From NCBI GenBank assembly GCA_902567435.1, contig CACFMU010000002.1:3990-67989 (forward strand): 64,000 nt of DNA, in the 5' to 3' direction. The first letter of the stretch is position 1; each line of letters opens with the position of its first letter. This stretch comes from an uncultured Pelagibacteraceae bacterium (GTDB lineage: Bacteria; Pseudomonadota; Alphaproteobacteria; Pelagibacterales; Pelagibacteraceae). The translations under genes and the position numbers were made by a program. The notes beneath the pieces were generated by a model. That model was not told where the DNA came from. It was given only the letters and a program-made list of their open reading frames with translations, and did not search any database. Of this stretch, positions 22,664 to 40,138 are shown piece after piece.

Positions 22664-23885
22664 AGAAAAAATAGATCTTAGTTTAGATCGTATTAAAGAA
22701 CTCTGTAAAAAATTAGGTAATCCTCAAGACAAAATTAAAGCCATATCTGTGGTGGGTAGCAATGGCAAGAACAGCTCAATCAATGCAAAGTTTGCTATAT
22801 TAAAAGAAGCTAATTTCAATTGTAATGTTTACACTAGCCCTCATATTCTAAAAATAAATGAACGATTTGTATTCAATAATGAGGAATTAAGTGATGATAA
22901 GTTAGCTGATTTATTTGAAGAAATAGAAAGTTTTAATGAAAATAAACCAATTACATTCTTTGAAATATTAACAGCATCTTATTTTTATAAAGCTGCTCAG
23001 TACCCTGACAACATTAACCTTGTAGAGGCTGGCTTGTTTCACCGATTTGATGCAACTAACATACTTAAAGAAAACTTAGCTAGTGTCATATGCTCATGTT
23101 CTATTGACCACACTGACTGGCTCCCAAAAGATGAAAGAACAATTGAAAAAATTGTATTTGAAAAAACATCTACACTTTTAAATTCAAATATTATTGTAGC
23201 TAAACAAAGCACTAAAGAGACAATGGATTGTATCAAAAAAACTATTTCTCAAAATAAATCTAATAAAGTGTTTTTTAATGATGATTTTAGTTACTCTGTA
23301 AATGAAAATGGATCCTTTTATTATGAGGATAAATTTGGTGGATTAAAACTTCCAATACCTAATGTTCTTGGTCAATATCAATTAGAAAATATCTCAACAG
23401 CAATAGCAACTTTAAGAACTTTAGATATTGGCATCAAGGATGAGCATATTCAAAGAGGTGTTACTAAAATATCTAGTTTAGCAAGACTTCAGGAAATTAA
23501 GTCTGGTAAATTAAAAGAACTTGTTAAAAATAATAAATTAATAGTTGATGGAAGCCATAACGAAGGTGGAGCTAAAGCATTAAACGAATATCTTCAAAGT
23601 TTAGATTGTAATAAGCATCTAATTATTGGAATGATGTCTAACAAGCGACATGAAGAATATATTAGCTACTTAAAAGATATCTCCTCAATAACAACAATAG
23701 ACATACCCAATCAAATTAATGCTATCAAAGGTTTAGAACTAAGAGATAAATTTAAAAACCACCCTAATGTTCAATATCAAGCAAGTATAGAAGAAGCTAT
23801 TAAATCAATACCATTAAAAAAAAATGATCTTTTATTAATAACTGGTTCTTTATACCTTGCAGGTGAAGTATTAAATTTAAACTAA
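22617..23885 (+). CDS. folC: Folylpolyglutamate synthase/dihydrofolate synthase
   Basis: GSNGK, YTSPH, FFEILTA, DATN, DGSHN, TGSLYLAG. Confidence 0.94.
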   Translation: MKLQKILNRLLEKHPKEKIDLSLDRIKELCKKLGNPQDKIKAISVVGSNGKNSSINAKFAILKEANFNCNVYTSPHILKINERFVFNNEELSDDKLADLFEEIESFNENKPITFFEILTASYFYKAAQYPDNINLVEAGLFHRFDATNILKENLASVICSCSIDHTDWLPKDERTIEKIVFEKTSTLLNSNIIVAKQSTKETMDCIKKTISQNKSNKVFFNDDFSYSVNENGSFYYEDKFGGLKLPIPNVLGQYQLENISTAIATLRTLDIGIKDEHIQRGVTKISSLARLQEIKSGKLKELVKNNKLIVDGSHNEGGAKALNEYLQSLDCNKHLIIGMMSNKRHEEYISYLKDISSITTIDIPNQINAIKGLELRDKFKNHPNVQYQASIEEAIKSIPLKKNDLLLITGSLYLAGEVLNLN

Positions 23886-24199
23886 AGATTTTCGTCTAGC
23901 CACGTTTTTACATGGCCCTCTGGGGCACCACCCACCTTACGCGAAATTTCAATTCCCTTCTTATACAAAATTAATGTGGGAACGCCACGAATACCAGCAG
24001 CGGAACCTGTGTTGATCCCATTATTTTCTATATCAGCGTAATACATGTTACACTTTTCTTTGTACTCTTCTGATAACTTATCCATTATGGGCTTCAAACT
24101 TTTACATGGCCCGCACCACGCTGCCGAAAATTGTATGACTGATGCATCTTCTTGTTTAATTTTATTTTCAAAGTCTTCATCTTTAAAATCTATAAGCAT
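23882..24199 (-). CDS. trxA: Thioredoxin (atypical, GC-rich)
   Basis: WCGPC active site, GIRGVPT cis-Pro loop. Confidence 0.9.
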   Translation of the reverse strand: MLIDFKDEDFENKIKQEDASVIQFSAAWCGPCKSLKPIMDKLSEEYKEKCNMYYADIENNGINTGSAAGIRGVPTLILYKKGIEISRKVGGAPEGHVKTWLDENL

Positions 24200-24295
24200 A
24201 ATTTATCCTTTTAATCTAAATTTAAAATTTGTATCCTACGTATGTATTGATTGAAGTTCAATTTTTCAACTATTAACTTTATTTTTTTATATAAT

Positions 24296-24754
24296 TTATA
24301 ATAATTTACTTAATCTAGAAGACCTTTTTTCATTCAAAACTCTTCTAACTAATTTTCTATTACAAGGCACTCCAAGAGCTTTAGCTACTTTATCAGCTAT
24401 AGAAGATTTTGATTCTTTTTTGTTTTCAGCTTTATCAAATATTTCCAAGATTTTTTTTTCTTTATTCTTAACATTTTCTATTCCAAGAGAAGTATTATTA
24501 CTTAAAAACATAATTTTTTTAATTTCGTTGATTTTTGTCAAAGAAAGGATTTTATAAGCTGTTGGCACAGAACCTCCTGAACCCTCTCTTTTAAATTTAC
24601 ACATTTTAATATTATGATTAAAGCTAAACCTTGGTAGATTATCTTTTCTTACGGATATCTTGTTTTTTATTAAAAATTCTAAAAATCCATCAGTATCCAA
24701 ATATCCTTCAGGTATTTCTTCAAATAATTTTAAATTATAAGGATTATTTTGCAT
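24296..24754 (-). CDS. Hypothetical protein, possible C-terminal helix-turn-helix
   Basis: 152-aa ORF with GGAG RBS; SSIADKVAKALGVPCNRKLVRRVL is HTH-like. Confidence 0.6.
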   Translation of the reverse strand: MQNNPYNLKLFEEIPEGYLDTDGFLEFLIKNKISVRKDNLPRFSFNHNIKMCKFKREGSGGSVPTAYKILSLTKINEIKKIMFLSNNTSLGIENVKNKEKKILEIFDKAENKKESKSSIADKVAKALGVPCNRKLVRRVLNEKRSSRLSKLL

Positions 24755-24768
24755 ATAATCTCCGAGAA

Positions 24769-25962
24769 TTAATTTAAGTTATCTTTATCCTTGGTTAAGT
24801 TTTCCTCAAACTCTAATAATTTATCCTGCATGGGAGTTGTTTTTGGTATTGGAGTAGAAGGATTGATTCCCTGATCTTGTAGTTTTTCAATTCTTTGTTC
24901 CAAGCTAGCTTTTCCAGCCCATGCACCATTGATAACTTTTTTTAAACTTTCCCCATGACTATTAAAACTATTCATTGTTTGGATAAGGTACTTTTTTAAA
25001 ACTGAATATTTATCCATTAAGTGAGTAGCAGTGTCTGTAATTTCCTTCACACCATTGATTTGTTTTTCTTTGTCTTTAATAGTTTGAACAATAGAGATTA
25101 TTGCTAAAAGGTTTTTAGGTCCTACTAGTAATATGTTTTTTTTATAAGCATATTCATAAAGATCTGGAAAATGTTCTAAAGCTGCTAAGTAAGCAGCTTC
25201 ATGGCACATATACATTATTACTTTTTCAAAAACATCTTTCTTTAAATTTTTCATATAATCTTTTTTCGATAGATCATCGATATGTTTTCTAACAGCTAAA
25301 GCATGTTTTTTAAATTGCTCATCTTTTTCTTGATCATCTGTTGCCATTACAAATTTTTTCCAATTATCTAATGAAACTTTTGAGTCACATATAATATGAT
25401 TTCCATCAGCTAAATTTATTACTATGTCTGGCTTAACTGTTTGCGTGGTATCATCTTCTATATTCAAAACTTCTTCTTTCTTTTGTTTGGTATAATCAAT
25501 ACCCAACTTAAAACCATGAAACTGCAAGGATTGTTCTAGAAATTTTTCACCAAAATCTCCTTGATATTTTGAATTTCCCGTAAGTTTGTCAATAAATGTT
25601 TGTTGATCTTTAATCATTTTAGAATGTTCTGTCATATTAGTAGTCAGCACAGTTTTAAATTCATCAACTTTTCCTAAGCTTTTAAGCTGCTCAGCGCTAG
25701 TTGCTCTTTCAGTTTTTAAACTATCTTCAACATTGCTTTTAAGCTCCTCAAGACTATTAATTTTTTCTTTTAATAAATCAGCCTCTGAATTCTTTTCAGC
25801 TTCCAATAATTCCATTTGATGTTTTTGATTTTTTAACTCTTCATCTTTTAATCTTAAGTTTTCAATTTCTTCAGAGTTATCTTTTTTTTGAAAAAACTTA
25901 ATATAAGCTAACCATAGAATTGATGTTATTGCTGCTGTTACTAATATTGTAATTAAATTCAT
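24769..25962 (-). CDS. rmuC: DNA recombination protein RmuC family
   Basis: N-terminal TM, coiled coil, GDFGE..LE, KPDIVINL..IICDSKVSL, HIDDLSKKDY. Confidence 0.88.
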   Translation of the reverse strand: MNLITILVTAAITSILWLAYIKFFQKKDNSEEIENLRLKDEELKNQKHQMELLEAEKNSEADLLKEKINSLEELKSNVEDSLKTERATSAEQLKSLGKVDEFKTVLTTNMTEHSKMIKDQQTFIDKLTGNSKYQGDFGEKFLEQSLQFHGFKLGIDYTKQKKEEVLNIEDDTTQTVKPDIVINLADGNHIICDSKVSLDNWKKFVMATDDQEKDEQFKKHALAVRKHIDDLSKKDYMKNLKKDVFEKVIMYMCHEAAYLAALEHFPDLYEYAYKKNILLVGPKNLLAIISIVQTIKDKEKQINGVKEITDTATHLMDKYSVLKKYLIQTMNSFNSHGESLKKVINGAWAGKASLEQRIEKLQDQGINPSTPIPKTTPMQDKLLEFEENLTKDKDNLN

Positions 25963-25974
25963 TAATTGATTCCT

Positions 25975-26349
25975 TTATTGTATTGTATTGTTTGCTGCAT
26001 CTAATTTCAACTCAGGTGCATTTTCATTTAAATATTCAGACATATTCTTTGTAACTTCATCAGTAGATGTTTCATTTACATGTTTAAATAAATTGTAAGA
26101 GACATTTAATATTGCTCTTTGTTTTATGTGATAAAGAAAATGATAATAGGTAAAATCAGTATTCATTCTACATTCTTTAACAAATTCATCGATTTCATCA
26201 CATATTTTTCTAGCAAATTTATTAGTTCTTTCACGCTCCTGGTCTTCTATAGATAACAACTGGGTAGCATTTTCTGCCTCTACTATATTTTTATTAATAG
26301 GAATAACGTTTGTTGTTTTTTTTTTACTATTCTTTTTAATTTTTGGCAT
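25975..26349 (-). CDS. Hypothetical protein
   Basis: AGGAG RBS before ATG 26349 (MPKIKK); overlaps the end of the upstream ORF. Confidence 0.65.
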   Translation of the reverse strand: MPKIKKNSKKKTTNVIPINKNIVEAENATQLLSIEDQERERTNKFARKICDEIDEFVKECRMNTDFTYYHFLYHIKQRAILNVSYNLFKHVNETSTDEVTKNMSEYLNENAPELKLDAANNTIQ

Positions 26350-26650
26350 TTTTTCTCCTATATTTGATTTGTGGCACCTCATATTTATTAAGCTCTTCTT
26401 TTAAAACCTCAATTTCACTAAGGGCCTTGTGATATTGAGAGTGTTCTCTGATCTTTTGAAAAAAATTAAGTGTTATAATGGGTAGGTAAATTAAACTATA
26501 GATTGTAAATATAAGCTTATTATCTCGAAACCTTCTTTTTTTTGCTTCAGCAATTAAACCTCTAAACTTTAAGTAATTCTTTTGATCATTTGCCCAGTTT
26601 TCTCGATGAGTAAGGCAATCTTTTAAAACATAATAATATTTATCTTTCAT
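26336..26650 (-). CDS. Hypothetical protein with one hydrophobic segment
   Basis: AAAGGAG RBS; LIFTIYSLIYLPIITLNFF segment. Confidence 0.65.
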   Translation of the reverse strand: MKDKYYYVLKDCLTHRENWANDQKNYLKFRGLIAEAKKRRFRDNKLIFTIYSLIYLPIITLNFFQKIREHSQYHKALSEIEVLKEELNKYEVPQIKYRRKNAKN

Positions 26651-26664
26651 GATGCTCCTTTAAG

Positions 26665-26817
26665 ATATTGAAGCTCAGATTCTCACAACAGAAAGGATTG
26701 AGATAAAAAAAATGAGAACCTGAGTTTTCAATATATGATTTTGAAATATTTAAGCTTAAGCACTTCCAACAGAAAGCAGAAAGAAAGGAATGAAGTAAAC
26801 TTAAGTGTTCAATATTT
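26665..26817 (-). ncRNA. Putative structured leader/sRNA: two tandem hairpins with conserved stem base and CUUUCUGUUG loop
   Basis: Inverted repeats 26665-26685/26713-26734 and 26744-26766/26792-26817; both loops share CAACAGAAAG on +. Confidence 0.65.
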
Positions 26818-26832
26818 TTTATCATTGAGAAC

Positions 26833-26861
26833 AATATATATAATAAAATTACTGTTGTCAA
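26833..26861 (-). promoter_or_regulatory. Leftward sigma70 promoter
   Basis: TTGACA (26861-26856)-17 bp-TATATT (26838-26833). Confidence 0.7.
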
Positions 26862-26867
26862 CAGTAA
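26849..26867. promoter_or_regulatory. Palindromic operator candidate
   Basis: Perfect TTACTGTTG-T-CAACAGTAA covering the -35 of the leftward promoter. Confidence 0.65.
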
Positions 26868-26876
26868 AAATATCTA

Positions 26877-26905
26877 TTTACAAATAAATTTTACTTCTAT
26901 ATAAA
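26877..26905 (+). promoter_or_regulatory. Rightward promoter for the repressor gene
   Basis: TTTACA-17 bp-TATAAA. Confidence 0.5.
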
Positions 26906-26934
26906 GTACTATATATAAAGAATCAACAAATCCA

Positions 26935-28041
26935 ATGAATACAATTATTAACGAAAAAAACCGAGAATTGCTTCTAAAAGTACTAAAGTTATCAAATTTA
27001 ACTAAAGCTCAATGTAGCTACTTGTTAGGAAAGCATCAAAAATCACTAGATACCTATATTTATAAATACTCAGACATAAATTTTCCACCAAGTTTTGCTT
27101 TTTTCTTTCTTAGTTCAGTTGCAACTTCTCAAACTTCCTTTTGGGATAAGTCCCAAAAAATAAGCAAGTTTAACTATTTTAAAAAATTAGATCATGTAGA
27201 TAACCACGAGTTTTATAAGTTACTAAACAATTGTGAGGATTTGGAAATAGTTAAAAAATTAATCATGCCATGCCTAGAACACCATTGTATGCTCTTAATT
27301 AGATTGTCAAATTCACAATTTGTTCATGATGCAGATTATTTTGAAGAAGAATACATTAATCTAGCAATGCCAGGAATAAGAGAGTCTATTGAAGAGTATG
27401 AAGATTATAAAAATGGGATTGAAGATGGATCGAGAGTTAGTCCTAATGAAGCTTTAAAAAATATTCAAAACCAAAAATTATTAGAATCTATAAAAAATTT
27501 TTTTCTTCACGCAGAAATTTTAAGAAAACATTATATGGAAAACTTTGTTGCACCCCATGAGACTTTCAAACTACCTGTTTTAAATTCAAACGAAAAAATT
27601 TTGTTTTCAAAAGATTTTATAAAAAGAAATTTAAATATAAAAAAATATGATGATTTAGTTTTAATGAATGTAGACGAAGATAATATGCAAGGAACATTTA
27701 ATAAAAATGATATTGCATTAATAGTGAAATTTAAAAATAATATACTGCCACAAAAATATGAAGATGGTATTTATGCACTAAATATAAATGAAAAAATTTC
27801 TGTTAGAAGGCTGCAATTTTTAAAACTACCTAAGAGAACTTTGGTTACAATTATTTCAGATAATAAGAATTATAGTGATCAAAACGTTGCTCTGGAAGAT
27901 CTGAATATATTTGGTGAAGTTGTTTGGAAATGTAATAGTTTTAAAGATATAAAATTTGAAAAATATATTGATAACACACCCGATTTATTTTCAGAGGAAA
28001 AAACAACAATTAACAAAATTTTAGAGAAGGAAACTGCATAA
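26935..28041 (+). CDS. CI/LexA-like regulator: N-terminal HTH-like region plus C-terminal S24-fold domain lacking catalytic residues
   Basis: LTKAQCSYLLG HTH-like; VDEDNMQGTF..D..LIV...DGIYAL...VRRLQ...IISDNKNY...IFGEVVW. Confidence 0.75.
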   Translation: MNTIINEKNRELLLKVLKLSNLTKAQCSYLLGKHQKSLDTYIYKYSDINFPPSFAFFFLSSVATSQTSFWDKSQKISKFNYFKKLDHVDNHEFYKLLNNCEDLEIVKKLIMPCLEHHCMLLIRLSNSQFVHDADYFEEEYINLAMPGIRESIEEYEDYKNGIEDGSRVSPNEALKNIQNQKLLESIKNFFLHAEILRKHYMENFVAPHETFKLPVLNSNEKILFSKDFIKRNLNIKKYDDLVLMNVDEDNMQGTFNKNDIALIVKFKNNILPQKYEDGIYALNINEKISVRRLQFLKLPKRTLVTIISDNKNYSDQNVALEDLNIFGEVVWKCNSFKDIKFEKYIDNTPDLFSEEKTTINKILEKETA

Positions 28042-28042
28042 G

Positions 28043-29488
28043 ATGGATTATAATTATATATTTTTTGACTGTGAAACAAACAGTGGAAGATCACATGCTG
28101 ATATTTTAACTATTTCAGCATTATTTGTTGATAAAAATTTTAAATTAATTGAGGAATTTAATTGTGCAGCTCGTCTTAGAAAATCTAGAATATATGAGAT
28201 AGATAGTTTCTTAGTAAATGGAATGGATCCTTTCGAAGTTGATAAACACCCCTTCTCTAATTTTGATTTAACGAAAAAAACTAATGATAAATTTATCTCT
28301 TGGATAAATAAAGGGCCTGTATTGTTTTGTGCGCACAACGGATACCAATTCGATTATATGCTAACATCTACGCACCTTTTTACCAATCTCTTTACATGGC
28401 CTTGGATATTTTCAACAGGAAATGCCAAACAAATAGATTCTTTACCAATTCTACAAAATTTTGATTTTTATTCTCCAAATACAATTGCAATCGAATTAAA
28501 TGAAAAATCTAATAAAACTTTTAAATTAAGTAGTTTATGTCGGATGAATGGTTTTGACCTTGGAGATAAAGCTCATACAGCAGAGGCAGATACTTTGGGA
28601 ATGAATAAACTAATGGAATTAGTGAGTAAAAAGAATCCAGAGTTATTTAAAAAATGTATTAGTCTTAATGATAAGAAAAATGTTTTATCAAGAATAAAAG
28701 ATGTTGATTATTTTTGTCACCCTGAAACATTTTTCGGTCGAACTAGACAATTTACTTCAAGTTATCTTTGTGAACATCCAGTATACAAAGGTTATCATTT
28801 AGTTTTTGATTTAAAGCATGATCCTGAGGCAATGTTTTCAGAAAAATCTAATACAGTTTTAAAAAAAATTCTTAACGGTGCTCCAAAAAAATACAGAACT
28901 ATAAAAGCTAATAAAAATCCTTTTATTCAAGATAAATCATGGGCTACAAAATTTGGTGATGAGTATACAACGCTTGGACATGAAATATTAGAACAGAGAG
29001 CAAACTTTGTAGTTGAAAATAGAGATGAGCTTGCTAACAGAGTTAGCTTAATTATTAGTGATCAATTTGAAAGTCAGAATTTAGATCAAACAGAATTACT
29101 TCCTGAACAAATGATTTTTACATTAAATCCTTCTCCATCAGATAAATCATTGATGAATCATTTTGTGATGACAAACTCTATGGATGAGCAGAAAAAAATT
29201 CACAAAAGTTTCAAAGGTCCTATTAAACATTTATCTGAAATGATACTGCTTGATAGATTTGGAGAAGAACCTTTTACAAAAGCTGAATATACAAGAATTA
29301 GAAAAGGTATAAGCAGAAGATTGCTCTCAACCAACAAAGAAGCTTTTCCAACTATTCCTGATGGAATGGCGCGTATTGATCAGCTTAGAGTTGAAAAAAA
29401 AGATGAACCTGAGCAATTAAAAATTATTGAAAATATAAATAAACATTTAGAGATGACTGCATCTGAACATGAAAAATATTTAAAATAA
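28043..29488 (+). CDS. sbcB: Exodeoxyribonuclease I-like DEDDh 3'-5' exonuclease
   Basis: FFDCET, AHNGYQFD, FKLSSL..NG....AHTAEADT; ExoI-sized (481 aa). Confidence 0.8.
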   Translation: MDYNYIFFDCETNSGRSHADILTISALFVDKNFKLIEEFNCAARLRKSRIYEIDSFLVNGMDPFEVDKHPFSNFDLTKKTNDKFISWINKGPVLFCAHNGYQFDYMLTSTHLFTNLFTWPWIFSTGNAKQIDSLPILQNFDFYSPNTIAIELNEKSNKTFKLSSLCRMNGFDLGDKAHTAEADTLGMNKLMELVSKKNPELFKKCISLNDKKNVLSRIKDVDYFCHPETFFGRTRQFTSSYLCEHPVYKGYHLVFDLKHDPEAMFSEKSNTVLKKILNGAPKKYRTIKANKNPFIQDKSWATKFGDEYTTLGHEILEQRANFVVENRDELANRVSLIISDQFESQNLDQTELLPEQMIFTLNPSPSDKSLMNHFVMTNSMDEQKKIHKSFKGPIKHLSEMILLDRFGEEPFTKAEYTRIRKGISRRLLSTNKEAFPTIPDGMARIDQLRVEKKDEPEQLKIIENINKHLEMTASEHEKYLK

Positions 29489-29489
29489 T

Positions 29490-29687
29490 ATGGCTTTTGT
29501 TAAATCAGAAAAAATAGAAATTGAAATCCAAAAACAAGTAATGGCTGATGCAGGATGTAAATATATGGTACTAGTTAAATCTGAAAATAATAATCAAAAT
29601 AAACTTAAAATTTTAACTACTGATGTTGAGCCTATAGTTAGGTTTTCTGAAGATAATGGTCGTATTGTAGTTGTTAAAAAGAATTAG
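29490..29687 (+). CDS. Small hypothetical protein
   Basis: 65 aa, starts 1 nt after the ExoI stop. Confidence 0.6.
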   Translation: MAFVKSEKIEIEIQKQVMADAGCKYMVLVKSENNNQNKLKILTTDVEPIVRFSEDNGRIVVVKKN

Positions 29688-30382
29688 CTATTATTTTTTA
29701 ATTCATAATAGGCATCTACTCTTCTCATCGCTTCATCTTTTAAATGCTCAAATTCTTGGCCTTCTATTTTAAATTTTTGAAAAAGTAAATTTGGAGTGCA
29801 CATCAAAATAACTCCCGTTTTAATACTAGTTCCATATACTTTATCGTGTGCCATTGCATATAGACAAAGTTGGAGGAAGTATTCGTTTACAGAAGACCAT
29901 TCACGTTGCTTTGGCTTATTACTTTGTTTCCAGTCTCCCACAGCCATCTTTGAGTCAAAATTAATAATTCCATCAGCAGTTCCTGCATATAAATTTGGAT
30001 AATGTAACACTACCTCACATCCATAGACCTCATCGACATGATCATTAATGCCATTTTTTACTATAGTTTCGGCCATTTTTTTTGGTAAATTAACCTCTTC
30101 AATCAACTCACCGTTCATACGACCTAACAATATTGCCTCGACATAGGAGTGCATATTTGTGCCACGATCACTTGATTGCTTTGCTATAGCTGTAGCATTT
30201 GCTAAACCAACATCTTTTTTCCATTTACTTAATGCATCTTTATCTTTTTGACTTTTAGTCAATGAAAGTATGGTAGTCACGCTTGGTAATTTTTCACCTT
30301 CTACCTCATAATGTCTAGATCCATTATAGATAGATCTCATTGATTTAGGGTAGGCAAACTTATTAATGATTTTCCAAGGCAT
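29684..30382 (-). CDS. Phage-type PD-(D/E)XK exonuclease (Cas4/RecB-like)
   Basis: LPSVTTIL, RGTNMH, YAGTAD, DWKQS, QL..Y. Confidence 0.85.
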   Translation of the reverse strand: MPWKIINKFAYPKSMRSIYNGSRHYEVEGEKLPSVTTILSLTKSQKDKDALSKWKKDVGLANATAIAKQSSDRGTNMHSYVEAILLGRMNGELIEEVNLPKKMAETIVKNGINDHVDEVYGCEVVLHYPNLYAGTADGIINFDSKMAVGDWKQSNKPKQREWSSVNEYFLQLCLYAMAHDKVYGTSIKTGVILMCTPNLLFQKFKIEGQEFEHLKDEAMRRVDAYYELKNNS

Positions 30383-30388
30383 ATTAAT

Positions 30389-30880
30389 TTAAATCCTTTT
30401 TTTTTTAGCTTGAGCTTGATATTCTCTATCTCTTTGCTTTTTAATTTCCCAATCTTTTTGAGATAAATTAATCCATCTGCTTATAGCTGATTTTCTATCT
30501 TTTTGTCTTTTATTTTCTAATCTTTTTTTATCTTTTTTTAATTTTTTATAATATTTTATATCTCTTTCTCTTTTGTTGATTTTATCCTCTTCTGTCTCAT
30601 ATTCTTTCCTTTTTCTATACATTTCTATTTTTTCAGCATCAGTATATCTGTCTGCATATGGTATAGATTTTTTAGTAGCTCCAATGGGCAAATAAGACTT
30701 TCTAAATTTTATATTTTCAGCATACTTAATTTTCTTTAATGTTTTTTTGTTTATTTTTAGTTTTTCTTCAACCTCTTTTTGTGACATTTTTTTTGCTAGT
30801 TCTTTTATTTGAGGAATTAAATCATATGTAGATTGTCTAATATTTAATGGATTATTATTTTTAAATTGATTTTTTTGCAT
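30389..30880 (-). CDS. Basic hypothetical protein, possible N-terminal HTH
   Basis: MSQKEVEEKLKINKKTLKKI; K/R-rich C-terminus. Confidence 0.55.
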   Translation of the reverse strand: MQKNQFKNNNPLNIRQSTYDLIPQIKELAKKMSQKEVEEKLKINKKTLKKIKYAENIKFRKSYLPIGATKKSIPYADRYTDAEKIEMYRKRKEYETEEDKINKRERDIKYYKKLKKDKKRLENKRQKDRKSAISRWINLSQKDWEIKKQRDREYQAQAKKKRI

Positions 30881-30948
30881 ACTAAATTTTCTAATTTGCC
30901 ATATTAAGACCTTTTTTTTATCATTAAATTAATAATTGTTAAAGTTCA

Positions 30949-31875
30949 GTGATGAAAGTTCTTAAATTTAAGATTAATACAAAACGAACCAAAGTTAGAC
31001 CTAATTTAAAAAATATACCTAAAAGTCTTTTAAAAAAAATGTTTGATATGAAGGAGTATGAATCTCAGTTTAAAGATTATACCAAAGCTAAAAAATTGAC
31101 ATTTAAATTTGTATTAGATGAACGTAACAAAACAATCAGATGTATAGATCAGTATTCACCATATTGGCATGGTATTTTTAATACTGAAAAATTAAATCTC
31201 AAAGAAGAATATTCATCTGAAAACGAAAATATATATGGTAGTGAAACAACTAAATGGTACAGGTTAGGTGGCTTTAATGCCACAATGCTCCATCATTATA
31301 TAACTACAATTTCTTCAGCTAAGGGTGGTCTTTTAATTAGACCTTCTGTTTATTTAGCATATCCTCATAAAATTGATGATGAGCCAAAATTTAAATTATG
31401 TGACAGCTTTGATATAGTAATGGATTGTGTTTACAGTAACGAAGAACCATTGACTTTTACTACTGGGCTAGATGATAAAATAGTCAAACAAATTATGAAT
31501 AAGTCCACTATGAAAAAAGCTTTAGAAATACTTTCTGAAAAACCAAAAAAAAGTAGACAGTATTGGAGCAGAAAAATGTTTAAATATGAAAAATTTTTTG
31601 AACATGATGAAAAATATGATTTGGTTAAATTAGCTAAATACCTTAATGAAATTGTTTATGATTTATTGGATAAAGATAACGCTGGAATTTATAGTACAAA
31701 ATTGGTTTTTAAAAAATTTGTTGTTCAATTTTATCAGTTGTATGCGATACATCATAAAATAACATATGCTCAATCTTTGTTGAAGATATTGGATATCTTA
31801 AATCTTTCTGGCAATAAAATAATTGAGGACATTGAATATCCAGTTGAACCTGCTGAAGCTTTTAATAAGCAATAA
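30949..31875 (+). CDS. Hypothetical protein
   Basis: 308-aa open frame, no recognised motif. Confidence 0.65.
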   Translation: MMKVLKFKINTKRTKVRPNLKNIPKSLLKKMFDMKEYESQFKDYTKAKKLTFKFVLDERNKTIRCIDQYSPYWHGIFNTEKLNLKEEYSSENENIYGSETTKWYRLGGFNATMLHHYITTISSAKGGLLIRPSVYLAYPHKIDDEPKFKLCDSFDIVMDCVYSNEEPLTFTTGLDDKIVKQIMNKSTMKKALEILSEKPKKSRQYWSRKMFKYEKFFEHDEKYDLVKLAKYLNEIVYDLLDKDNAGIYSTKLVFKKFVVQFYQLYAIHHKITYAQSLLKILDILNLSGNKIIEDIEYPVEPAEAFNKQ

Positions 31876-31887
31876 CTGGAACCTGTA

Positions 31888-32005
31888 AGTTGGTTAAACG
31901 TTCAGCTTTATATTAATTCACTAACCCTATGTAAGGGACCAAGGGGGTACCTGGTATAGGATATATGTGCTAAAGTGTAGAATATTTATAGGGTGTTAAC
32001 CACTT
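31888..32005. other. GC-enriched structured intergenic element
   Basis: Nested inverted repeats TGGTTAA/TTAACCA, ACCCTAT/ATAGGGT, ACCAAGG/CCTGGT. Confidence 0.45.
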
Positions 32006-32021
32006 TCTATTTTGTTGTTTT

Positions 32022-32822
32022 ATGAGGAATAAGAAAATTAAAAATGAATATCTAAAAAAAAGAGAACTACTTACCTCTTATGATATTTATCGAGCAAAAC
32101 ATAAAAAACTACCTGTAAGCAAAGATGAGTATCAAAATCTTAAAGACGAAATTCTAATATTAGAAAGTCGACATCCAAGTATAAAAGAGATGGGCGATGA
32201 ATTGGTAATAAGAGGAGAATTAAAATACCCTGATGGCACAATTTATAAAGGAGCAATAAAAAGTGCTGATCAACAAATTCCTCATGGTCGTGGTTTTATG
32301 TGTTTAAATCAATTTGATATAGATTTTGAGTCTGAAACACATGGTAAAAAATTAACTGATAATCCTTGGGATTATATTGGTGAATTCAAAGACGGTGTTT
32401 TCGATGGTCAAGGTGAGTACAGATGTAAGGGAAATTATTCATATAATGGTGAATGGAAGAAAAGCCATTTTCATGGAAAGGGCAAATTAATTCTTGAAGA
32501 AGCCAAAGAGGTTTATGAGGGTGAGTTTGTTGATAGTAAAAAAAATGGATATGGCACTTTGATAGTATCCGATCAATTTAAAACAGAGGGTAAATGGATA
32601 GATGATAAGTTACATGGAGAAGGGAAAATAACATTTTTAAAAGATATTGATGAAGAAGAGAAAGGAACAATTATTAAAGGTAATTTTGTAAAAGGTAATT
32701 TACATGGTTCCTCCGAAGTAATTTATCCGGATGGTGATATTCTAGAATGTATAAATAAAAATGGTGTACGTATTAAAGTAAGATTTAAAGGCGAAAAAAA
32801 ATGGACCATTATCAAGAAGTAA
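32022..32822 (+). CDS. MORN-repeat protein with LigA-domain-Ia-like N-terminus
   Basis: Repeats YxGxxxxxxxxGxG (YIGEFKDGVFDGQG, YNGEWKKSHFHGKG, YEGEFVDSKKNGYG). Confidence 0.8.
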   Translation: MRNKKIKNEYLKKRELLTSYDIYRAKHKKLPVSKDEYQNLKDEILILESRHPSIKEMGDELVIRGELKYPDGTIYKGAIKSADQQIPHGRGFMCLNQFDIDFESETHGKKLTDNPWDYIGEFKDGVFDGQGEYRCKGNYSYNGEWKKSHFHGKGKLILEEAKEVYEGEFVDSKKNGYGTLIVSDQFKTEGKWIDDKLHGEGKITFLKDIDEEEKGTIIKGNFVKGNLHGSSEVIYPDGDILECINKNGVRIKVRFKGEKKWTIIKK

Positions 32823-32966
32823 ATAAATTTTGTAAATACTGGTTAACAAATCCAAAAATTAAGCAACTTTTTAAAACATATGAATTTGTTAAATATCTTT
32901 ACATTTTTAAACGATATAGACTCTATTTGTCATTTAAATTTGATAAATATAGTGGCATAATAATTA

Positions 32967-34151
32967 ATGGCTGAAACTCACGACAAAGGTGCAATAGACT
33001 CTTCATCAGTAATTTTAAATAAGATAAGATCTGAGGATAATGAGTTTAAACAAATTTTCACGACAAGATTTCATAGAGCAGGGTTTACAGGATGGCCTAA
33101 AGCTGATGCAGTTTTCAAAGATTATTTTGATGAAAAAGAAATAACTATTGGATTAGAATATAAACCTCCATACCAGGATAAAAGGGAATATATGACAGGA
33201 GTTGGACAAGCAATCTCTTATCTTTATCATAATGATTATGCTGGTCTTATTATTCCTAAATTTTCAAAAGATAATTTTCCTATTTCAGATTTTGTTATTG
33301 ATCTAGTTAATAAAAGAGATGAATTGAATAAATTACCAATTTGTATCTTTGACTATGATCCAAAAATCCCAATCAATTCAGATAATCTGTTTTTAAAGAA
33401 AAAAATACATAAAAAAAATGATTATATTTTTGAAAAAAAAGATGACAAAGGCAAAGTAAAGGTATTTTGGGCATGGTGGAGAGATCTCAGTAATTATGAA
33501 ATTTATGATATTTTATCTCTATGTAAAAATTATGACGAAAAAAAATCAGAGGATATTTATACAAACTATGTGTGGCCTGAATTTAAAAAAAAATTAGAAA
33601 ATAAAGAAGCATTGACTTGGGAGGGTACACCAAGAAATAGACCTTCAATACCAGCTGGTGAAAAACAAAATTATAAAATTCCACTATTTCAATTAGGTTT
33701 TATTAATCAAGACACTGGGCACTTAACGCAATATGGTTACAGATTTTTAAATTTATGTGATCAAGTAGGCCCTGAAAGTAAAATTTTTATGAAAGCGCTT
33801 GGAAATCATATTCTTAGGGAGGGAAAACATATGCAATTGATTGATTTAATCTATTACTTCCAAGAAAAAATTTTAAAACAAAATGTAAAATTTAATTCAA
33901 ATGAACATAAGGAATTATTTGATAATTATTTAATTGATGTGGGACAAGTTCCACCTTGGGAAGAACGAAAGCCTGGAAGAAAAACTACTGGTGGAAAACA
34001 ATACTATATTCGAGATGAGTTTAAGTTGTGGAACAAACTAGGTTTTCTTTGTGGAGATAGAAACCGCTATTTTAGAGAAAATTATGGATTACAATTTGAT
34101 TGGCCTAAAATTATGGAAACTTATAATTTTGATATTCATAAATTTATTTAA
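32967..34151 (+). CDS. Putative restriction endonuclease (PD-(D/E)XK)
   Basis: PKADAVF...GLEYKP...GVGQAISY motif; convergent with two m5C MTases. Confidence 0.65.
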   Translation: MAETHDKGAIDSSSVILNKIRSEDNEFKQIFTTRFHRAGFTGWPKADAVFKDYFDEKEITIGLEYKPPYQDKREYMTGVGQAISYLYHNDYAGLIIPKFSKDNFPISDFVIDLVNKRDELNKLPICIFDYDPKIPINSDNLFLKKKIHKKNDYIFEKKDDKGKVKVFWAWWRDLSNYEIYDILSLCKNYDEKKSEDIYTNYVWPEFKKKLENKEALTWEGTPRNRPSIPAGEKQNYKIPLFQLGFINQDTGHLTQYGYRFLNLCDQVGPESKIFMKALGNHILREGKHMQLIDLIYYFQEKILKQNVKFNSNEHKELFDNYLIDVGQVPPWEERKPGRKTTGGKQYYIRDEFKLWNKLGFLCGDRNRYFRENYGLQFDWPKIMETYNFDIHKFI

Positions 34152-35190
34152 CAATCTTACCAGTTAAATTTTTTTTACTAAAAATAATACTCTCTTTTAT
34201 TTTTTTTCCTAAAATTTTAGCTAACTTTATTGGAACAGCATTTCCAACCAAAATACATTGCTCCTGTCTTGTTCCTTGAAAAATTACTTTATCGGGAAAG
34301 GTTTGTAATCTAGCTGCCTCTCTTACCGTTAAAGACCTATTTAAAGTAGGATGTAGTGGAAATGCATTATGTCCTGGAACCATGGTTCCTGAGGGTAATT
34401 TTCTATCAAGTCTTCTATATATATGGCTAAAATTTTTTAAACTATTGTTTTTGTAGTCACTTCTACTTCCAAATAATAATTGCTTAGGTATATTTTTTGT
34501 AATTCCTCCCCCTTCATTAATAAAAGAAATTCTTTTTTTAACAATTTCATTATGTTTCATAGGCACATGATTAGAAATTTTTACATTTTTTGTTAGATCC
34601 ATTATTGCGTCTCCAACAGTTCTATATTTTTTTTTTGTACAAATAGGGTCTGGAAATGTAAAATTAAATTCATCTTTATAACCAATTAAAAATACTCTTT
34701 TTCTTAATTGAGGTACTCCATAATCTGCAGCATTTAAAAGTTTATAATCAATATCATAACCACATGAGATAAAGAATTTTTTTAATCTATTAAAATAAAA
34801 AATATTTTTTTCTTGAATTAGTCCACTTACATTTTCCATAACAAAAAACTTTGGATTTAAAGTTTTGACAATCCGACCAAATTCAAAAATTAAATCATTT
34901 CTTTTATCATTAATATTTTGTTTACCAATTGATGAGAAGCCTTGACATGGCGGACCTCCTATAACCACATCAATTTTTTTATTTTTAAAAATCTCTCTAA
35001 TTTCGTAACTTGAATAATCTTGAATTGATTTGGTAAAAATTTCTTCTTTTTTAAAATTTTTTTTATGAGACATTATTGCTGGTTTCCAGTTATCAAAAGC
35101 TCCAACACAGTTAAAACCAGCTTCTTTGAAGCCTAAAGAAAAACCACCTGCTCCACAAAATAAGTCTACAAAATTAAGCTGCTTTTTCAT
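34144..35190 (-). CDS. DNA (cytosine-5)-methyltransferase
   Basis: DLFCGAGG, GGPPCQGFS, ENV, QLRKR, GNAV. Confidence 0.95.
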   Translation of the reverse strand: MKKQLNFVDLFCGAGGFSLGFKEAGFNCVGAFDNWKPAIMSHKKNFKKEEIFTKSIQDYSSYEIREIFKNKKIDVVIGGPPCQGFSSIGKQNINDKRNDLIFEFGRIVKTLNPKFFVMENVSGLIQEKNIFYFNRLKKFFISCGYDIDYKLLNAADYGVPQLRKRVFLIGYKDEFNFTFPDPICTKKKYRTVGDAIMDLTKNVKISNHVPMKHNEIVKKRISFINEGGGITKNIPKQLLFGSRSDYKNNSLKNFSHIYRRLDRKLPSGTMVPGHNAFPLHPTLNRSLTVREAARLQTFPDKVIFQGTRQEQCILVGNAVPIKLAKILGKKIKESIIFSKKNLTGKIVK

Positions 35191-36217
35191 TTTTTTTTAA
35201 ATCTTTTTTTAATAAAATTTTTTTTAAATGTTTGGCCCAGCATTGTGCCATTTTGACAGGAACAGAATTACCGACTTGCATACATTGTTCATGTCTTGGA
35301 CCAACAAAAATGAAATTATCTGGGTAAGTTTGTATTCTTGCTGCTTCCCGAACAGTCAACGATCTATTTAACCATGGATGTATTGGAAAGGCATTATGCC
35401 CTGGTACCATAGTTAATGAAGGCTTATTTCTATGAAGTCTTTTGAAAGTATTTCCAAAATTTTTTCTAAATAATTCTTTTGAAAGCTTATTTTCTGGAAG
35501 CCTTCCACCCTCTGGTATTAAACTATATCTCTTTAGATTTTTAGGCTTATGGTTAAGTGGAACATGATTTATTTTGGTATCAATTTTTATTTCAGCTAAA
35601 TCACTAATTATAGAATTAATAGAAACTTCTTTTTTTAAAAATAAATTTTCACCATGAGTAGTATTAGGTTTTGAAATCTCATATTTATCTATTCTTGTTC
35701 CGATAATAAAAACTCTTTTTCTATATTGAGGAACACCATAATTAACAGCATCTAATTTAAAAACCTGATATCTGTAACCAAAAGATTCAATTTTTTTTTT
35801 TAATGCCTCAAAAATTTTTCCCTTTTCTCTAGTAAGTATACCACTTACATTTTCCATTAAAAAAATTTTGGGATTTAAATAGTTAACATGCTCCATAAAT
35901 GAAAATACCAAATTATTTCTAAAGTCTTTTTTTTCTCTTTTTTGTTTAAGTGATGAAGCTCTAGATCCTATAGTTGAAAATCCTTGGCAAGGTGGTCCTC
36001 CCACAACAATATCTGGTTTTAAACCCTTAAAATTCTCTTTTTTAAGTTGAGACAAATCTTCCAATATAAATTTTGTTTTAGGTAAATTTTTTTGATAAAC
36101 TTTTTGACAATAAGGATCTATGTCAGCTGCGAGCTCAACATGAAATTTTTCTTGAATAAATCCTAATGTAAAACCACCAGATCCACAAAACAAGTCAACG
36201 ATTTTTAATTTATTCAT
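35174..36217 (-). CDS. DNA (cytosine-5)-methyltransferase
   Basis: DLFCGSGG, GGPPCQGFS, ENV, QYRKR, GNSV. Confidence 0.95.
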   Translation of the reverse strand: MNKLKIVDLFCGSGGFTLGFIQEKFHVELAADIDPYCQKVYQKNLPKTKFILEDLSQLKKENFKGLKPDIVVGGPPCQGFSTIGSRASSLKQKREKKDFRNNLVFSFMEHVNYLNPKIFLMENVSGILTREKGKIFEALKKKIESFGYRYQVFKLDAVNYGVPQYRKRVFIIGTRIDKYEISKPNTTHGENLFLKKEVSINSIISDLAEIKIDTKINHVPLNHKPKNLKRYSLIPEGGRLPENKLSKELFRKNFGNTFKRLHRNKPSLTMVPGHNAFPIHPWLNRSLTVREAARIQTYPDNFIFVGPRHEQCMQVGNSVPVKMAQCWAKHLKKILLKKDLKKNEKAA

Positions 36218-36306
36218 AATGATTCAGAATAAATACTATATCACAACTTTATCAAAAAATTATATTGACTGTTGATAACTTTTTCAATTTCATTATTAAT
36301 AATATT

Positions 36307-36441
36307 ATGGATCTTCTTTTTATCTCAAAATTATTATTATTAGTGGGAGCAATAATTGTGGTTTATGCAGTTGCTAGAAACCTTGATATTATTAAGATTA
36401 TTTTAGTTTATTGGAAAGACTTAATACTTGGTCGAAAGTAA
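36307..36441 (+). CDS. Putative 44-aa membrane peptide
   Basis: Manual translation MDLLFISKLLLLVGAIIVVYAVARNLDIIKIILVYWKDLILGRK*; below the ORF-track cutoff. Confidence 0.45.
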   Translation: MDLLFISKLLLLVGAIIVVYAVARNLDIIKIILVYWKDLILGRK

Positions 36442-37113: not shown

Positions 37114-37117
37114 AAAA

Positions 37118-39537: not shown

Positions 39538-39612
39538 TGGTACCCGGGCTGAGAATCGAACTCAAACTTAAAGTTCCACAAACTTTCGTGCTAACCGTTA
39601 CACCACCCAGGC
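39538..39612 (-). tRNA. tRNA-His(GUG)
   Basis: GCCTGGG...AAAGT-TTGTGGA-ACTTT...TTCGATT...CCCGGGT-A-CCA. Confidence 0.95.
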
Positions 39613-39784
39613 ATTCCTTGTTTTTATATTATTTTTGTGTGGATTTAAAATTATATTATAAATAAATAGCCTACAGGCTATGGAAACAAACTCTATGAGT
39701 ACTTCTTGAAGTCTCTCTATATGTAATATTTATAATCATGAGCAGTCTTTTAGACAATAATTCCGATTATTCAAGACAAAAAAT

Positions 39785-39827
39785 AAAAAAGGACGTTATC
39801 TATTTTTCTATAGATAAAACGCCCTTT
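39785..39827 (-). terminator. Intrinsic terminator after cspA
   Basis: Imperfect hairpin (GGGCGTTTTATCTAT...ATAGATAACGTCC) followed by a T-run on the minus strand. Confidence 0.65.
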
Positions 39828-39845
39828 AAAATATTTTAATAAAAA

Positions 39846-40058: not shown

Positions 40059-40138
40059 CTTATTCTTAGTCCTTATGTTGTTTATTATTCTATAAAGCTA
40101 TTTTGATTTTTTTTAAATTTCAAGATTAAAAATGATTG

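What the first reader, a model, noticed from the sequence alone, without database searches (positions are those of the whole stretch)
23882..36441. Integrase-less island organised around a phage-like switch and loaded with nucleases: candidate new defence or satellite-derived system
Seen: ~12.5 kb between folC and hisG carrying thioredoxin, an HTH-like ORF, RmuC, two unknown ORFs, a hairpin leader, a divergent operator, a CI-like repressor, ExoI, a PD-(D/E)XK exonuclease, a MORN fusion and an R-M system. No integrase, capsid, terminase, flanking tRNA or att repeat is visible. Four nuclease-fold proteins occur together with divergent copies or fragments of host DNA-metabolism factors (Trx, ExoI, LigA N-terminus). 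Inference: a regulated anti-phage module or domesticated phage-satellite remnant exchanged by homologous recombination at the flanking core genes.
Basis: partly seen in the sequence, partly recalled or inferred. Interest (0 to 1): 0.75.

Follow-up and report, generated by a model that had tools for sequence, protein, structure and literature searches.

The report
SAR11 repair-gene locus with swappable cargo
The supposed 12.5-kb "island" is the normal Pelagibacter DNA-repair gene neighbourhood between folC and hisG, here in a rare recombinant version with its own LexA-like regulator that cannot self-cleave, plus a small slot next to hisG where restriction-modification cassettes are swapped in and out.

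Summary
The listed genes are real, but they are not one island or one system. Thioredoxin, RmuC, exonuclease I and the PD-(D/E)XK (MGME1-like) nuclease are single-copy core genes. They sit between folC and hisG in nearly every Pelagibacter genome examined, usually as a compact 4-5 kb block. They are the host's only copies, not extra divergent ones.

The window is a mosaic of three layers:
1. folC, trx, hisG and hisZ of the common type.
2. A rare "type B" version of RmuC, ExoI and PD-(D/E)XK. It comes with small ORFs and an HTH/pseudo-S24 regulator whose catalytic Ser and Lys are invariantly Asn and Arg. The full-length regulator occurs in 5 of 200 other species genomes, and every full-length copy whose context was examined lies in this interval.
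3. A cargo stretch (30343-36298) made of independently assorting pieces: o163, an o308-MORN pair, and a PaqCI-like type IIS restriction enzyme with two m5C methyltransferases.

A close relative has a different R-M system in the same slot. Trees and breakpoints show exchange by homologous recombination. Nothing supports a phage or satellite origin or a LigA fragment. Only the R-M cassette is a clear defence system. Interest is moderate.

The parts
22617..23885 (+). folC (left core flank), common ('modal') allele type
   Evidence: Pfam Mur_ligase_C. 61-77% identical to most genus genomes but 28-30% to G008/G024/L040.
23882..24199 (-). trxA, the genome's only good thioredoxin; core gene, modal type
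   Evidence: PF00085 E 1.8e-22. Only copy apart from a 28% Trx-like hit on C12. 70-78% identical to most genomes, always next to folC. GC 0.387.
24296..24754 (-). o152, unknown protein next to trx; present in some locus types
   Evidence: No family hit. Homologues in G013, G008, G024, G110, G103, L040.
24769..25962 (-). RmuC, rare 'type B' allele of a single-copy core gene
   Evidence: PF02646 E 2.3e-52. RmuC found in 47/47 genus genomes >=90% complete. 63% identical to G008, 57% to G089, 93% to L040, 17-31% to other types.
25975..26349 (-). o135 (probably 124 aa, starting at MPKIKK), type-B-specific small ORF
   Evidence: Homologues of 124-130 aa at the same place in G008, G159, G300, L040-L042. 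No family hit.
26336..26650 (-). o104, first gene of the leftward operon; type B/C-specific small ORF
   Evidence: Homologues in G008, G024, G110, G159, G300, L040-L042. No family hit.
26651..26830 (-). 5' leader of the leftward operon, with two hairpins (covers the spurious ORF o73)
   Evidence: RNA fold -37.6 kcal/mol, z -3.1, 0 of 200 shuffles as good. Present only in the window and L040, absent in L041/L042/G008. No Rfam family.
26833..26867 (-). leftward promoter (TTGACA-17-TATATT) overlapped by the palindrome TTACTGTTG-T-CAACAGTAA (26849-26867), the candidate operator
   Evidence: 11/12 promoter match. The exact palindrome is unique in the genome. Its 17-nt core is identical in L040 and L041, and different sequences occupy that place in G008/L042.
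26935..28041 (+). regulator: helical N-terminal region plus catalytically dead S24 (LexA/CI-like) domain
   Evidence: PF00717 E 1.8e-8. Ser->Asn and Lys->Arg against the genome's own LexA, invariant in 33 homologues. AF2 pLDDT 75, C-domain matches LexA/CI/UmuD at 2.5-3.3 A. 127 homologues. N-domain has only 34 cluster representatives in 1.84 billion proteins.
28043..29488 (+). exonuclease I (sbcB), rare 'type B' allele, 1 nt after the regulator gene
   Evidence: NF008746 E 1.6e-22 and PF08411. DEDDh motifs present (and direct reading). 70% identical to G008/G159/G300/G292, 92% to L040, 25-35% to all other ExoI of the order.
29490..29687 (+). o65, small ORF after ExoI
   Evidence: 65-68-aa homologues in the same position in L040 (80%), L041 (55%) and G085 (43%).
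29684..30382 (-). PD-(D/E)XK ssDNA-exonuclease-like protein (MGME1-like / phage exonuclease family), type B allele of a core gene
   Evidence: PDB MGME1 E 7e-8. phrog_298 E 2.7e-44. About 40% identical to pelagiphage and cyanophage exonucleases. Found with the window protein in 21 of 25 intervals. G000+G008 clade, support 100.
30389..30880 (-). o163, lysine-rich unknown protein; part of the G008-type haplotype, missing in L040
   Evidence: 74% identical in G008 and G300 next to hisG. Lies outside the block homologous to L040.
30949..32822 (+). o308 + MORN-repeat protein: small itinerant cargo pair
   Evidence: Absent from 25 genus intervals. The pair recurs in L045 (80%/87%) with other neighbours, and o308 alone sits next to tgt in L043/L044. 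MORN PF02493.
32967..34151 (+). type IIS restriction endonuclease candidate
   Evidence: PaqCI (8em1_A) E 3e-12 over residues 36-133. A D...ExK-like motif (FDEKE...LEYK) read directly from the sequence. 77% identical in G069, with homology starting exactly at its first codon.
34144..36217 (-). two tandem m5C DNA methyltransferases (45% identical paralogues)
   Evidence: PF00145 E 1.6e-78 and 1.5e-70. PADLOC MTase_II. 77% and 84% identical in G069.
36265..36441 (+). o58, conserved small membrane ORF of the hisG flank (right edge of the variable slot)
   Evidence: 42-80% identical next to hisG in most of 25 genomes. Homology with L040 resumes at 36298.
36421..37113 (-). hisG (right core flank), modal type
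   Evidence: PF01634. 81-83% identical to G013/G089/G069, 43% to G008/G024. The G000+G008 clade is rejected, p-AU 4.6e-6.
39538..40213 (-). tRNA-His and tRNA-Phe, the pair reported to mark the origin-proximal edge of the genus-wide HVR zone
   Evidence: ARAGORN, Rfam, preprint 10.64898/2026.04.03.716430.

Best explanation
The stretch is a recombination mosaic at a conserved chromosomal locus, not an inserted element. In Pelagibacter the interval between hisG and folC normally holds a compact co-directional block: RmuC, an MGME1-like PD-(D/E)XK exonuclease, exonuclease I and TrxA. This is the cell's single-copy DNA-end-processing set, in a genus where no AddA was found. Each of these genes exists in the genus as a few very divergent types (17-31% identity between RmuC and ExoI types, 39-50% for PD-(D/E)XK), and the types are shuffled by homologous recombination. 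The window genome has the common folC, trx, hisG and hisZ but the rare 'type B' nuclease set. In type B the genes are rearranged into two divergent operons: o104-o135-RmuC-o152-trx leftward and regulator-ExoI-o65 rightward. Inferred mechanism: the regulator binds the palindrome over the -35 of the leftward promoter and represses at least that operon. Because its S24 domain lacks the Ser-Lys dyad, it cannot self-cleave on RecA filaments, so any induction must use another signal. Next to hisG is a cargo slot. Here it holds o163, an o308-MORN pair, and a type IIS R-M system. The PaqCI-like enzyme would cut unmodified foreign DNA, and the two m5C methyltransferases would protect the two strands of an asymmetric site. 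Shown: gene identities, core status and synteny, mosaic breakpoints, the dead dyad, the palindrome and promoter. Inferred: operator binding, the regulation logic, R-M specificity and activity.
For: Core status and synteny. RmuC is single-copy in 47/47 genus genomes >=90% complete, and ExoI in 45/47 by Pfam and in 138/143 across the order. By hand tally of the coordinates, hisG and ExoI are on one contig in 72 of 73 genomes and <=5.5 kb apart in 62 of 72. Family scans found an RmuC in the interval of all five relatives first fetched, and a PD-(D/E)XK even in G024. With the window protein as query, PD-(D/E)XK was found in 21 of 25 intervals. These genes are the only copies in this assembly. Mosaic. 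Window genes 24769-30880 are 51-74% identical to G008 but 17-49% identical to, or undetectable in, the modal type. folC and hisG are 70-83% identical to modal genomes and 29-43% to G008. ExoI and PD-(D/E)XK trees join G000+G008 with support 100, while hisG and folC reject that clade (p-AU 4.6e-6 and 1.5e-62). DNA breakpoints against L040 fall at about 24302, 30343 and 36298, and against G069 exactly at the start of o394. Cargo slot. The same R-M trio sits in G069 beside modal nucleases. L040 has a different R-M (Bsp6I-like REase + Dcm + EVE) in the slot. L041 has HATPase/Z1/DUF4420/AIPR genes downstream of its PD-(D/E)XK. Other Dcm genes lie in the interval in G114, G074 and G077. Regulator. 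Dead dyad, LexA/CI fold, palindrome over the promoter, and ExoI immediately downstream in 10 of 10 contexts. R-M.. No mobility genes, att repeats or GC shift. Precedent for exchange of flexible islands by recombination in bordering genes: PMC4033161. R-M enrichment among Pelagibacter singleton genes: preprint 10.64898/2026.04.03.716430.
Against: No direct evidence that the regulator binds the palindrome. G008 and L042 carry other sequences there, and the helical N-terminal region has no recognised DNA-binding family. Why housekeeping nucleases should persist as such divergent types is not explained by recombination alone. The position beside a defence-cargo slot, and the weak resemblance of RmuC and ExoI to PADLOC's RT-associated accessory models, leave room for an immune role. 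The window genome is only 69% complete, so a second, modal copy of the nucleases cannot be strictly excluded here; however, G008 (92% complete) has only one copy of each. The clade tested was named after the identities had been seen.
Confidence: 0.78

Rival explanations
1. The type B block (regulator-ExoI-o65 with o104-o135-RmuC and PD-(D/E)XK-o163) is a regulated anti-phage nuclease system that has taken over the place and the housekeeping role of the common operon. The non-cleavable LexA-like protein keeps the nucleases low until a phage cue releases it.
For: It is rare (full-length regulator in 5 of 200 species genomes). It sits beside a slot that repeatedly holds R-M or defence-type genes. 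Gene coupling is strict in 10 of 10 contexts. Divergence between types is extreme, as expected under an arms race. RmuC and ExoI match PADLOC's RT-associated accessory models. PD-(D/E)XK is shared with pelagiphages and cyanophages.
Against: It replaces universally retained single-copy genes instead of adding to them, whereas defence systems normally show presence/absence polymorphism. No PADLOC system is called, and no reverse transcriptase or other known effector partner is present. There is no experimental or co-occurrence link to phage resistance.
Confidence: 0.13
2. The whole 12.5 kb is one horizontally acquired, integrase-less genomic island or the degraded remnant of a prophage or phage satellite.
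For: A CI-like protein next to a divergent promoter with a palindrome. The PD-(D/E)XK exonuclease family is common in phages. tRNA-His and tRNA-Phe lie 3 kb away, and a preprint proposes phage integration at those tRNAs.
Against: No integrase, capsid, terminase, primase or att repeats. GC is the same as the surroundings. ExoI has no phage relatives, RmuC has no convincing ones, and the regulator matches only through the S24 domain. Four of the genes are core and syntenic in the genus. The parts occur independently in other genomes.
Confidence: 0.04
3. The divergent 'types' are simply fast-evolving orthologues inherited vertically, and the apparent mosaic is rate variation, not recombination.
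For: ExoI is generally fast-evolving (median pairwise identity 47% against 54-64% for folC, trx and hisG).
Against: The types are discrete and tree-discordant with neighbouring genes at very high significance. There are sharp DNA-level homology breakpoints between otherwise about 88%-identical genomes. Over the rest of the window G013, G008 and G024 are about equally related to G000.
Confidence: 0.05

Closest known systems
Flexible genomic islands exchanged by homologous recombination in bordering core genes (Lopez-Perez et al. 2014, PMC4033161), and the scattered singleton islands and R-M enrichment described for Pelagibacter (preprint 10.64898/2026.04.03.716430)
   Same: Fixed chromosomal position, different content in related genomes, no integrase, divergent bordering core genes, sharp homology breakpoints, and R-M genes as cargo.
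   Different: Here the 'replaced' genes include single-copy DNA-repair nucleases, not surface-polysaccharide clusters. The locus is small (4-35 kb) and combines a replacement part (nuclease types) with an additive part (the cargo slot next to hisG).
Type IIS restriction-modification systems with two methyltransferases (PaqCI-like endonuclease)
   Same: An endonuclease with sequence similarity to PaqCI, next to two m5C methyltransferases. From my own knowledge, paired methyltransferases are typical of enzymes that recognise asymmetric sites.
   Different: Similarity to PaqCI covers only about 100 residues (E 3e-12). The recognition site and cleavage offset are unknown.
LexA / phage CI / UmuD family (peptidase S24)
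   Same: C-terminal S24 fold, N-terminal helical region, and a position at a divergent promoter with a palindrome, as for CI-type repressors.
   Different: Catalytic Ser and Lys are invariantly Asn and Arg. About 200 residues of lineage-restricted helical sequence replace the usual short DNA-binding domain. It is always followed by exonuclease I. The genus has a separate canonical LexA and a UmuD-like protein.
E. coli SbcB (ExoI), RmuC and human MGME1
   Same: Family membership by profile or sequence, and intact DEDDh motifs in ExoI.
   Different: They are clustered in one operon with TrxA in Pelagibacter, and they are very divergent between species of one genus.

Membership tests
Mobile integrative island / prophage / phage satellite | Integrase or other recombinase | tested here: not met
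   No such family among the ORFs of 23882-36441 in Pfam, NCBIfam or PHROGs.
Mobile integrative island / prophage / phage satellite | Flanking att direct repeats or insertion directly in a tRNA | tested here: not met
   No att-like repeats. The nearest tRNAs lie 3.1-3.7 kb away, beyond hisG, hisZ and a 480-aa His-tRNA-synthetase-like ORF.
Mobile integrative island / prophage / phage satellite | Structural, packaging or replication hallmark genes | tested here: not met
   None found. ExoI has no phage relatives, RmuC no convincing ones.
Mobile integrative island / prophage / phage satellite | Composition different from the host | tested here: not met
   Island genes have GC 0.23-0.39 against a window mean of 0.283 (sd 0.032 over ORFs). 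There is no step in the profile.
Flexible genomic island exchanged by homologous recombination | Same chromosomal position with different content among related genomes | tested here: met
   The folC-hisG interval is 3.8-35 kb in five relatives. By hand tally, 10 of 72 genomes have hisG and ExoI 8-31 kb apart. Different cassettes lie next to hisG.
Flexible genomic island exchanged by homologous recombination | Recombination breakpoints or discordant phylogeny in bordering genes | tested here: met
   Breakpoints. AU tests and clade supports.
Type II (IIS) restriction-modification system | DNA methyltransferase(s) | tested here: met
   Two PF00145 proteins, E 1.6e-78 and 1.5e-70. PADLOC MTase_II.
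Type II (IIS) restriction-modification system | Adjacent restriction endonuclease | tested here: met
   o394 matches PaqCI at E 3e-12. It is co-inherited with both methyltransferases in G069.
Type II (IIS) restriction-modification system | Defined recognition site, cleavage and methylation activity | not testable with these tools
   Needs methylome data or enzyme assays.
Self-cleaving S24 repressor (LexA / CI) | S24 fold | tested here: met
   Foldseek hits to LexA, CI, 186 repressor and UmuD, rmsd 2.5-3.3 A over about 97 residues. PF00717.
Self-cleaving S24 repressor (LexA / CI) | Ser-Lys catalytic dyad | tested here: not met
   Ser->Asn and Lys->Arg against the genome's own LexA. N250 and R291/R292 are invariant in 33 homologues.
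Self-cleaving S24 repressor (LexA / CI) | Recognisable N-terminal DNA-binding domain and operator binding | tested here: inconclusive
   The N-terminal 200 residues are helical but match no family or structure. The palindrome is present but binding is untested.
Exonuclease I (SbcB) | DEDDh exonuclease motifs plus the ExoI C-terminal domain | tested here: met
   NF008746 and PF08411. NGYQFD and AHTAEAD align to E. coli ExoI. FDCET at the N-terminus read directly from the sequence.
Known defence systems other than R-M (PADLOC) | A complete set of system-defining proteins, e.g. a reverse transcriptase for the RT-associated RmuC/SbcB models | tested here: not met
   Only accessory-model hits for RmuC and ExoI. 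No RT or other core component among the ORFs.
NAD-dependent DNA ligase domain Ia (claimed for the MORN protein N-terminus) | Detectable sequence similarity to LigA | tested here: not met
   No ligase among PDB matches at E<=10. Pfam finds only MORN.

The most novel reading that the evidence does not exclude
Pelagibacter keeps its core DNA-end-processing nucleases (RmuC, ExoI, MGME1-like exonuclease) as a few ancient, discrete, freely recombining haplotypes at one locus, much like an immune-type polymorphism maintained by phage pressure. The rare type B haplotype, with its dedicated non-cleavable LexA-like regulator and small partner ORFs, would then be an inducible nuclease module that doubles as anti-phage defence.
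Probability: 0.15. Interest if true: 0.75.

Novelty: new variant of a known kind. Interest (0 to 1): 0.4.

Why it matters
The finding moves from 'possible new defence island' to a well-defined small recombination hot spot in the ocean's most abundant bacterium. Two things may deserve follow-up. First, single-copy repair nucleases that differ by 70-80% of their residues between species whose other proteins are about 75% identical, with clean haplotype swapping, point to balancing or diversifying selection on DNA-end processing, possibly driven by phages. Second, there is a lineage-restricted family of LexA-like pseudo-proteases (127 members found) strictly coupled to exonuclease I. The hisG-proximal slot is also a convenient natural 'landing pad' for cataloguing SAR11 R-M and defence cargo in metagenomes.

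Tried and rejected
- Dimer prediction for the pseudo-S24 domain (first attempt failed) gave no verdict, so it says nothing either way.
- A second operator: other ACTGT...ACAGT palindromes in the genome are all intragenic chance matches.
- LexA control: the genome's own lexA carries a GAAC-N7-GAAC repeat, but none is present in the divergent promoter region.
- AddAB at this locus: no AddA over the curated cut-off in five complete genomes. The idea that these nucleases stand in for AddAB beside trxA rests on remembered alphaproteobacterial synteny and was not tested further.
- A donor lineage for type B ExoI: nothing closer than 35% identity outside the type B carriers in 150 genomes of the order.
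- PDB sequence searches for o308 and the regulator found nothing meaningful.
- Rfam found no family for the leader hairpins.
- G085, where the block lies about 300 kb from hisG, turned out to be a rearrangement that carries the whole type C block, including o58, and not module hopping.
- One genome in the draw (G274) is unpublished. No claim here rests on it.

Full report
**What is there.** The window is AT-rich (28% GC) and belongs to a 0.83-Mb, 69%-complete genome whose relatives are 1.0-1.5-Mb genomes of one genus. The literature and gene content identify that genus as Pelagibacter (SAR11). Between folC (22617-23885) and hisG (36421-37113) the ORFs are: thioredoxin, o152, RmuC, o135, o104, an S24-domain protein, exonuclease I, o65, a PD-(D/E)XK nuclease, o163, o308, a MORN-repeat protein, o394, and two m5C DNA methyltransferases. 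o394 matches the type IIS restriction enzyme PaqCI (E 3e-12). The PD-(D/E)XK protein matches MGME1 (E 7e-8) and a phage exonuclease family (phrog_298, E 2.7e-44). No integrase, structural, packaging or reverse-transcriptase gene is present. There is no GC step and no att-like repeat.

**Three details of the inventory are wrong.**
- Trx, RmuC and ExoI are not extra 'divergent copies'. They are the only copies in the assembly.
- The 'LigA N-terminus' of the MORN protein has no support.
- tRNA-His and tRNA-Phe lie only 3.1-3.7 kb to the right.

**Core status and synteny.** In a draw of 80 genus genomes at least 85% complete:
- RmuC (PF02646) is single-copy in 77 of 80, and in 47 of 47 genomes at least 90% complete.
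- The ExoI C-domain is found in 74 of 80. The misses include genomes whose ExoI is found with the protein query.
- Across the order, ExoI is found once in 138 of 143 genomes at least 90% complete. That draw includes one unpublished genome, G274, on which nothing here rests.
- From the coordinates (my hand tally), hisG and ExoI share a contig in 72 of 73 genomes and lie within 5.5 kb in 62 of 72. RmuC usually begins about 0.4 kb after hisG.

In the six fetched intervals first examined and the twenty added later, the usual arrangement is hisG, o58, then RmuC > PD-(D/E)XK > ExoI > trx, converging on folC. No AddA reaches the curated threshold in five complete genomes. I infer that this operon is the genus's main DNA-end-processing set.

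**The locus is a mosaic.** Over most of the 64 kb, three other species (G013, G008, G024) are about equally similar to the window genome, at 65-90% amino-acid identity. At this locus the pattern splits.

| Gene | Modal genomes | G008 |
|---|---|---|
| folC | 61-77% | 29% |
| hisG | 65-83% | 43% |
| hisZ | 64-84% | 49% |
| RmuC | 17-22% | 64% |
| ExoI | 25-31% | 70% |
| PD-(D/E)XK | 39-50% | 67% |

 Single-linkage clustering gives 4 ExoI types, 6 RmuC types and 2 PD-(D/E)XK types among 22-26 genomes. Maximum-likelihood trees put G000 and G008 together for ExoI and PD-(D/E)XK (support 100). The same clade is rejected for hisG (p-AU 4.6e-6) and folC (p-AU 1.5e-62). The clade was named after I had seen the identities, but the effect is very large.

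**DNA breakpoints.** A single-cell genome (L040, GCA_902513955.1) matches the window at about 88% DNA identity over 24302-30343 and 36298-38998. It is unrelated over folC-trx (folC 28% amino-acid identity) and over 30343-36298. G069 matches at 79% from exactly the first codon of o394 through hisZ. These are the signatures of exchange by homologous recombination at a fixed locus, as described for flexible genomic islands (PMC4033161).

**The cargo slot.** The stretch 30343-36298 consists of pieces that assort independently.
- The R-M trio (o394, dcm1, dcm2; 77-84% identical) is next to hisG in G069, beside modal-type nucleases.
- L040 has a Bsp6I-like endonuclease, one Dcm and an EVE protein in that place.
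- L041 has HATPase_c_3, Z1, DUF4420 and AIPR genes downstream of its PD-(D/E)XK; that locus ends before hisG.
- G114, G074 and G077 carry other Dcm genes inside the interval.
- The o308-MORN pair recurs in L045 with other neighbours, and o308 alone sits next to tgt in L043/L044.
- o163 belongs to the G008-type haplotype.

A recent preprint on 135 complete Pelagibacter genomes places the Phe/His tRNA pair at the origin-proximal edge of the genus-wide variable zone and reports R-M enrichment among singleton genes. The present slot lies just inside that edge.

**The 'switch'.** The S24 protein is a third S24 protein, in addition to a canonical 234-aa LexA and a UmuD-like protein.
- Aligned to the genome's own LexA, the catalytic Ser is Asn and the Lys is Arg. 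Both are invariant in 33 homologues.
- An AlphaFold model (pLDDT 75) shows a LexA/CI/UmuD-type C-domain and a 200-residue helical N-terminal region with no structural or family match.
- That N-terminal region has only 34 cluster representatives among 1.84 billion proteins.
- The family has 127 members in marine data. In 200 genus genomes the full-length form occurs in 5. Four more genomes carry related forms: G226 has a 496-aa open frame, and G024, G110 and G085 match only the N-terminal domain and lack the S24 part.
- In all ten contexts examined, ExoI follows the regulator gene directly, and o104/o135/RmuC are transcribed divergently.
- The 284-bp intergenic region holds a perfect palindrome (TTACTGTTG-T-CAACAGTAA, 26849-26867) that contains the TTGACA of an 11/12 leftward promoter. 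Its 17-nt core is identical in L040 and in L041, whose regulator is only 54% identical, but not in G008 or L042.
- The leader forms two hairpins (z = -3.1), found only in the window and L040.
- No alphaproteobacterial-type LexA box is present there, although the genome's own lexA has one.

I infer a non-cleavable repressor acting on this palindrome. That is plausible but untested.

**Verdict on the interpretation.** 'One integrase-less island organised around a switch' is not supported. 'Satellite-derived' is not supported: ExoI has no phage relatives, RmuC's few hits are mostly bacterial or unannotated records, and the regulator matches phage repressors only through the generic S24 domain. 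Exchange by homologous recombination at core genes is supported. Only the R-M cassette is a recognisable defence system.

**What remains open.** Type B replaces single-copy core genes; it does not add to them. That argues for a housekeeping role. Still, its rarity, the strict coupling of its genes, the extreme divergence between types and its place beside defence cargo leave a minority possibility, about 0.13-0.15, that it also acts against phages. The dimer prediction for the pseudo-S24 domain returned no verdict.

Noticed in passing
window:19708-21737: The trpB-like (PALP) and trpA genes left of accD are only 28-37% identical to G013, G008 and G024, but 63% and 57% identical to G159. This looks like a second pair of core genes with deep allelic types close to the same locus.
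   Followed up: partly
L008:8123-11485, L009:2128-5502 (also G159, G300, G085): A roughly 1,120-aa protein combining a Cas4-like nuclease, an RNase_H_2 domain and an SF1 helicase sits inside the folC-hisG interval of several genomes, next to trx/o152 or folC. The window lacks it. It may be another end-processing enzyme of this locus.
   Followed up: partly
window:36265-36441: A 58-aa hydrophobic ORF overlapping the 3' end of hisG is conserved (42-80%) next to hisG in most genus genomes. It marks the exact right edge of the variable slot.
   Followed up: partly
L041:13622-21173: Downstream of PD-(D/E)XK, another SAR11 genome carries TerB-like, HATPase_c_3, Z1, DUF4420 and AIPR genes, which look like a defence-type cluster. 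The locus ends before hisG.
   Followed up: no
L004:3810-7033 (G013): In the 35-kb version of the interval, ExoI is followed by an o135-like ORF, a 694-aa protein with a weak LRR match and a DUF2130 protein, before o152 and trx. This is another variant of the operon.
   Followed up: no
window:23882-24199: trxA has the highest GC of any ORF in the window (0.387 against a mean of 0.281), yet it is the common core allele (70-78% identical to most genomes). The GC excess is therefore not a sign of foreign origin.
   Followed up: yes
window:38139-39581: The 480-aa TTG-start ORF (His-tRNA-synthetase-like; its homologue in L040 carries tRNA-synt_His and HGTP_anticodon domains) overlaps tRNA-His (39538-39612). 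Its true start is probably further downstream.
   Followed up: no
G085 (L048, L049): The whole type C block, from o58 to the helicase-nuclease, lies about 300 kb from hisG. This is a chromosomal rearrangement whose break is at the o58/hisG junction, the same point where cargo inserts.
   Followed up: partly
genome contig C7:~22880-22960: The genome's own lexA is preceded by GAACTTTTATAGAAC, which matches the alphaproteobacterial GAAC-N7-GAAC SOS box as I recall it.
   Followed up: no
L047:269-1393: A metagenomic 374-aa protein joins an N6-methyltransferase/Eco57I-type N-terminus to a C-terminus 97% identical to o308. It is either a fusion or an assembly chimera, and it hints at an R-M association for o308.
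   Followed up: no
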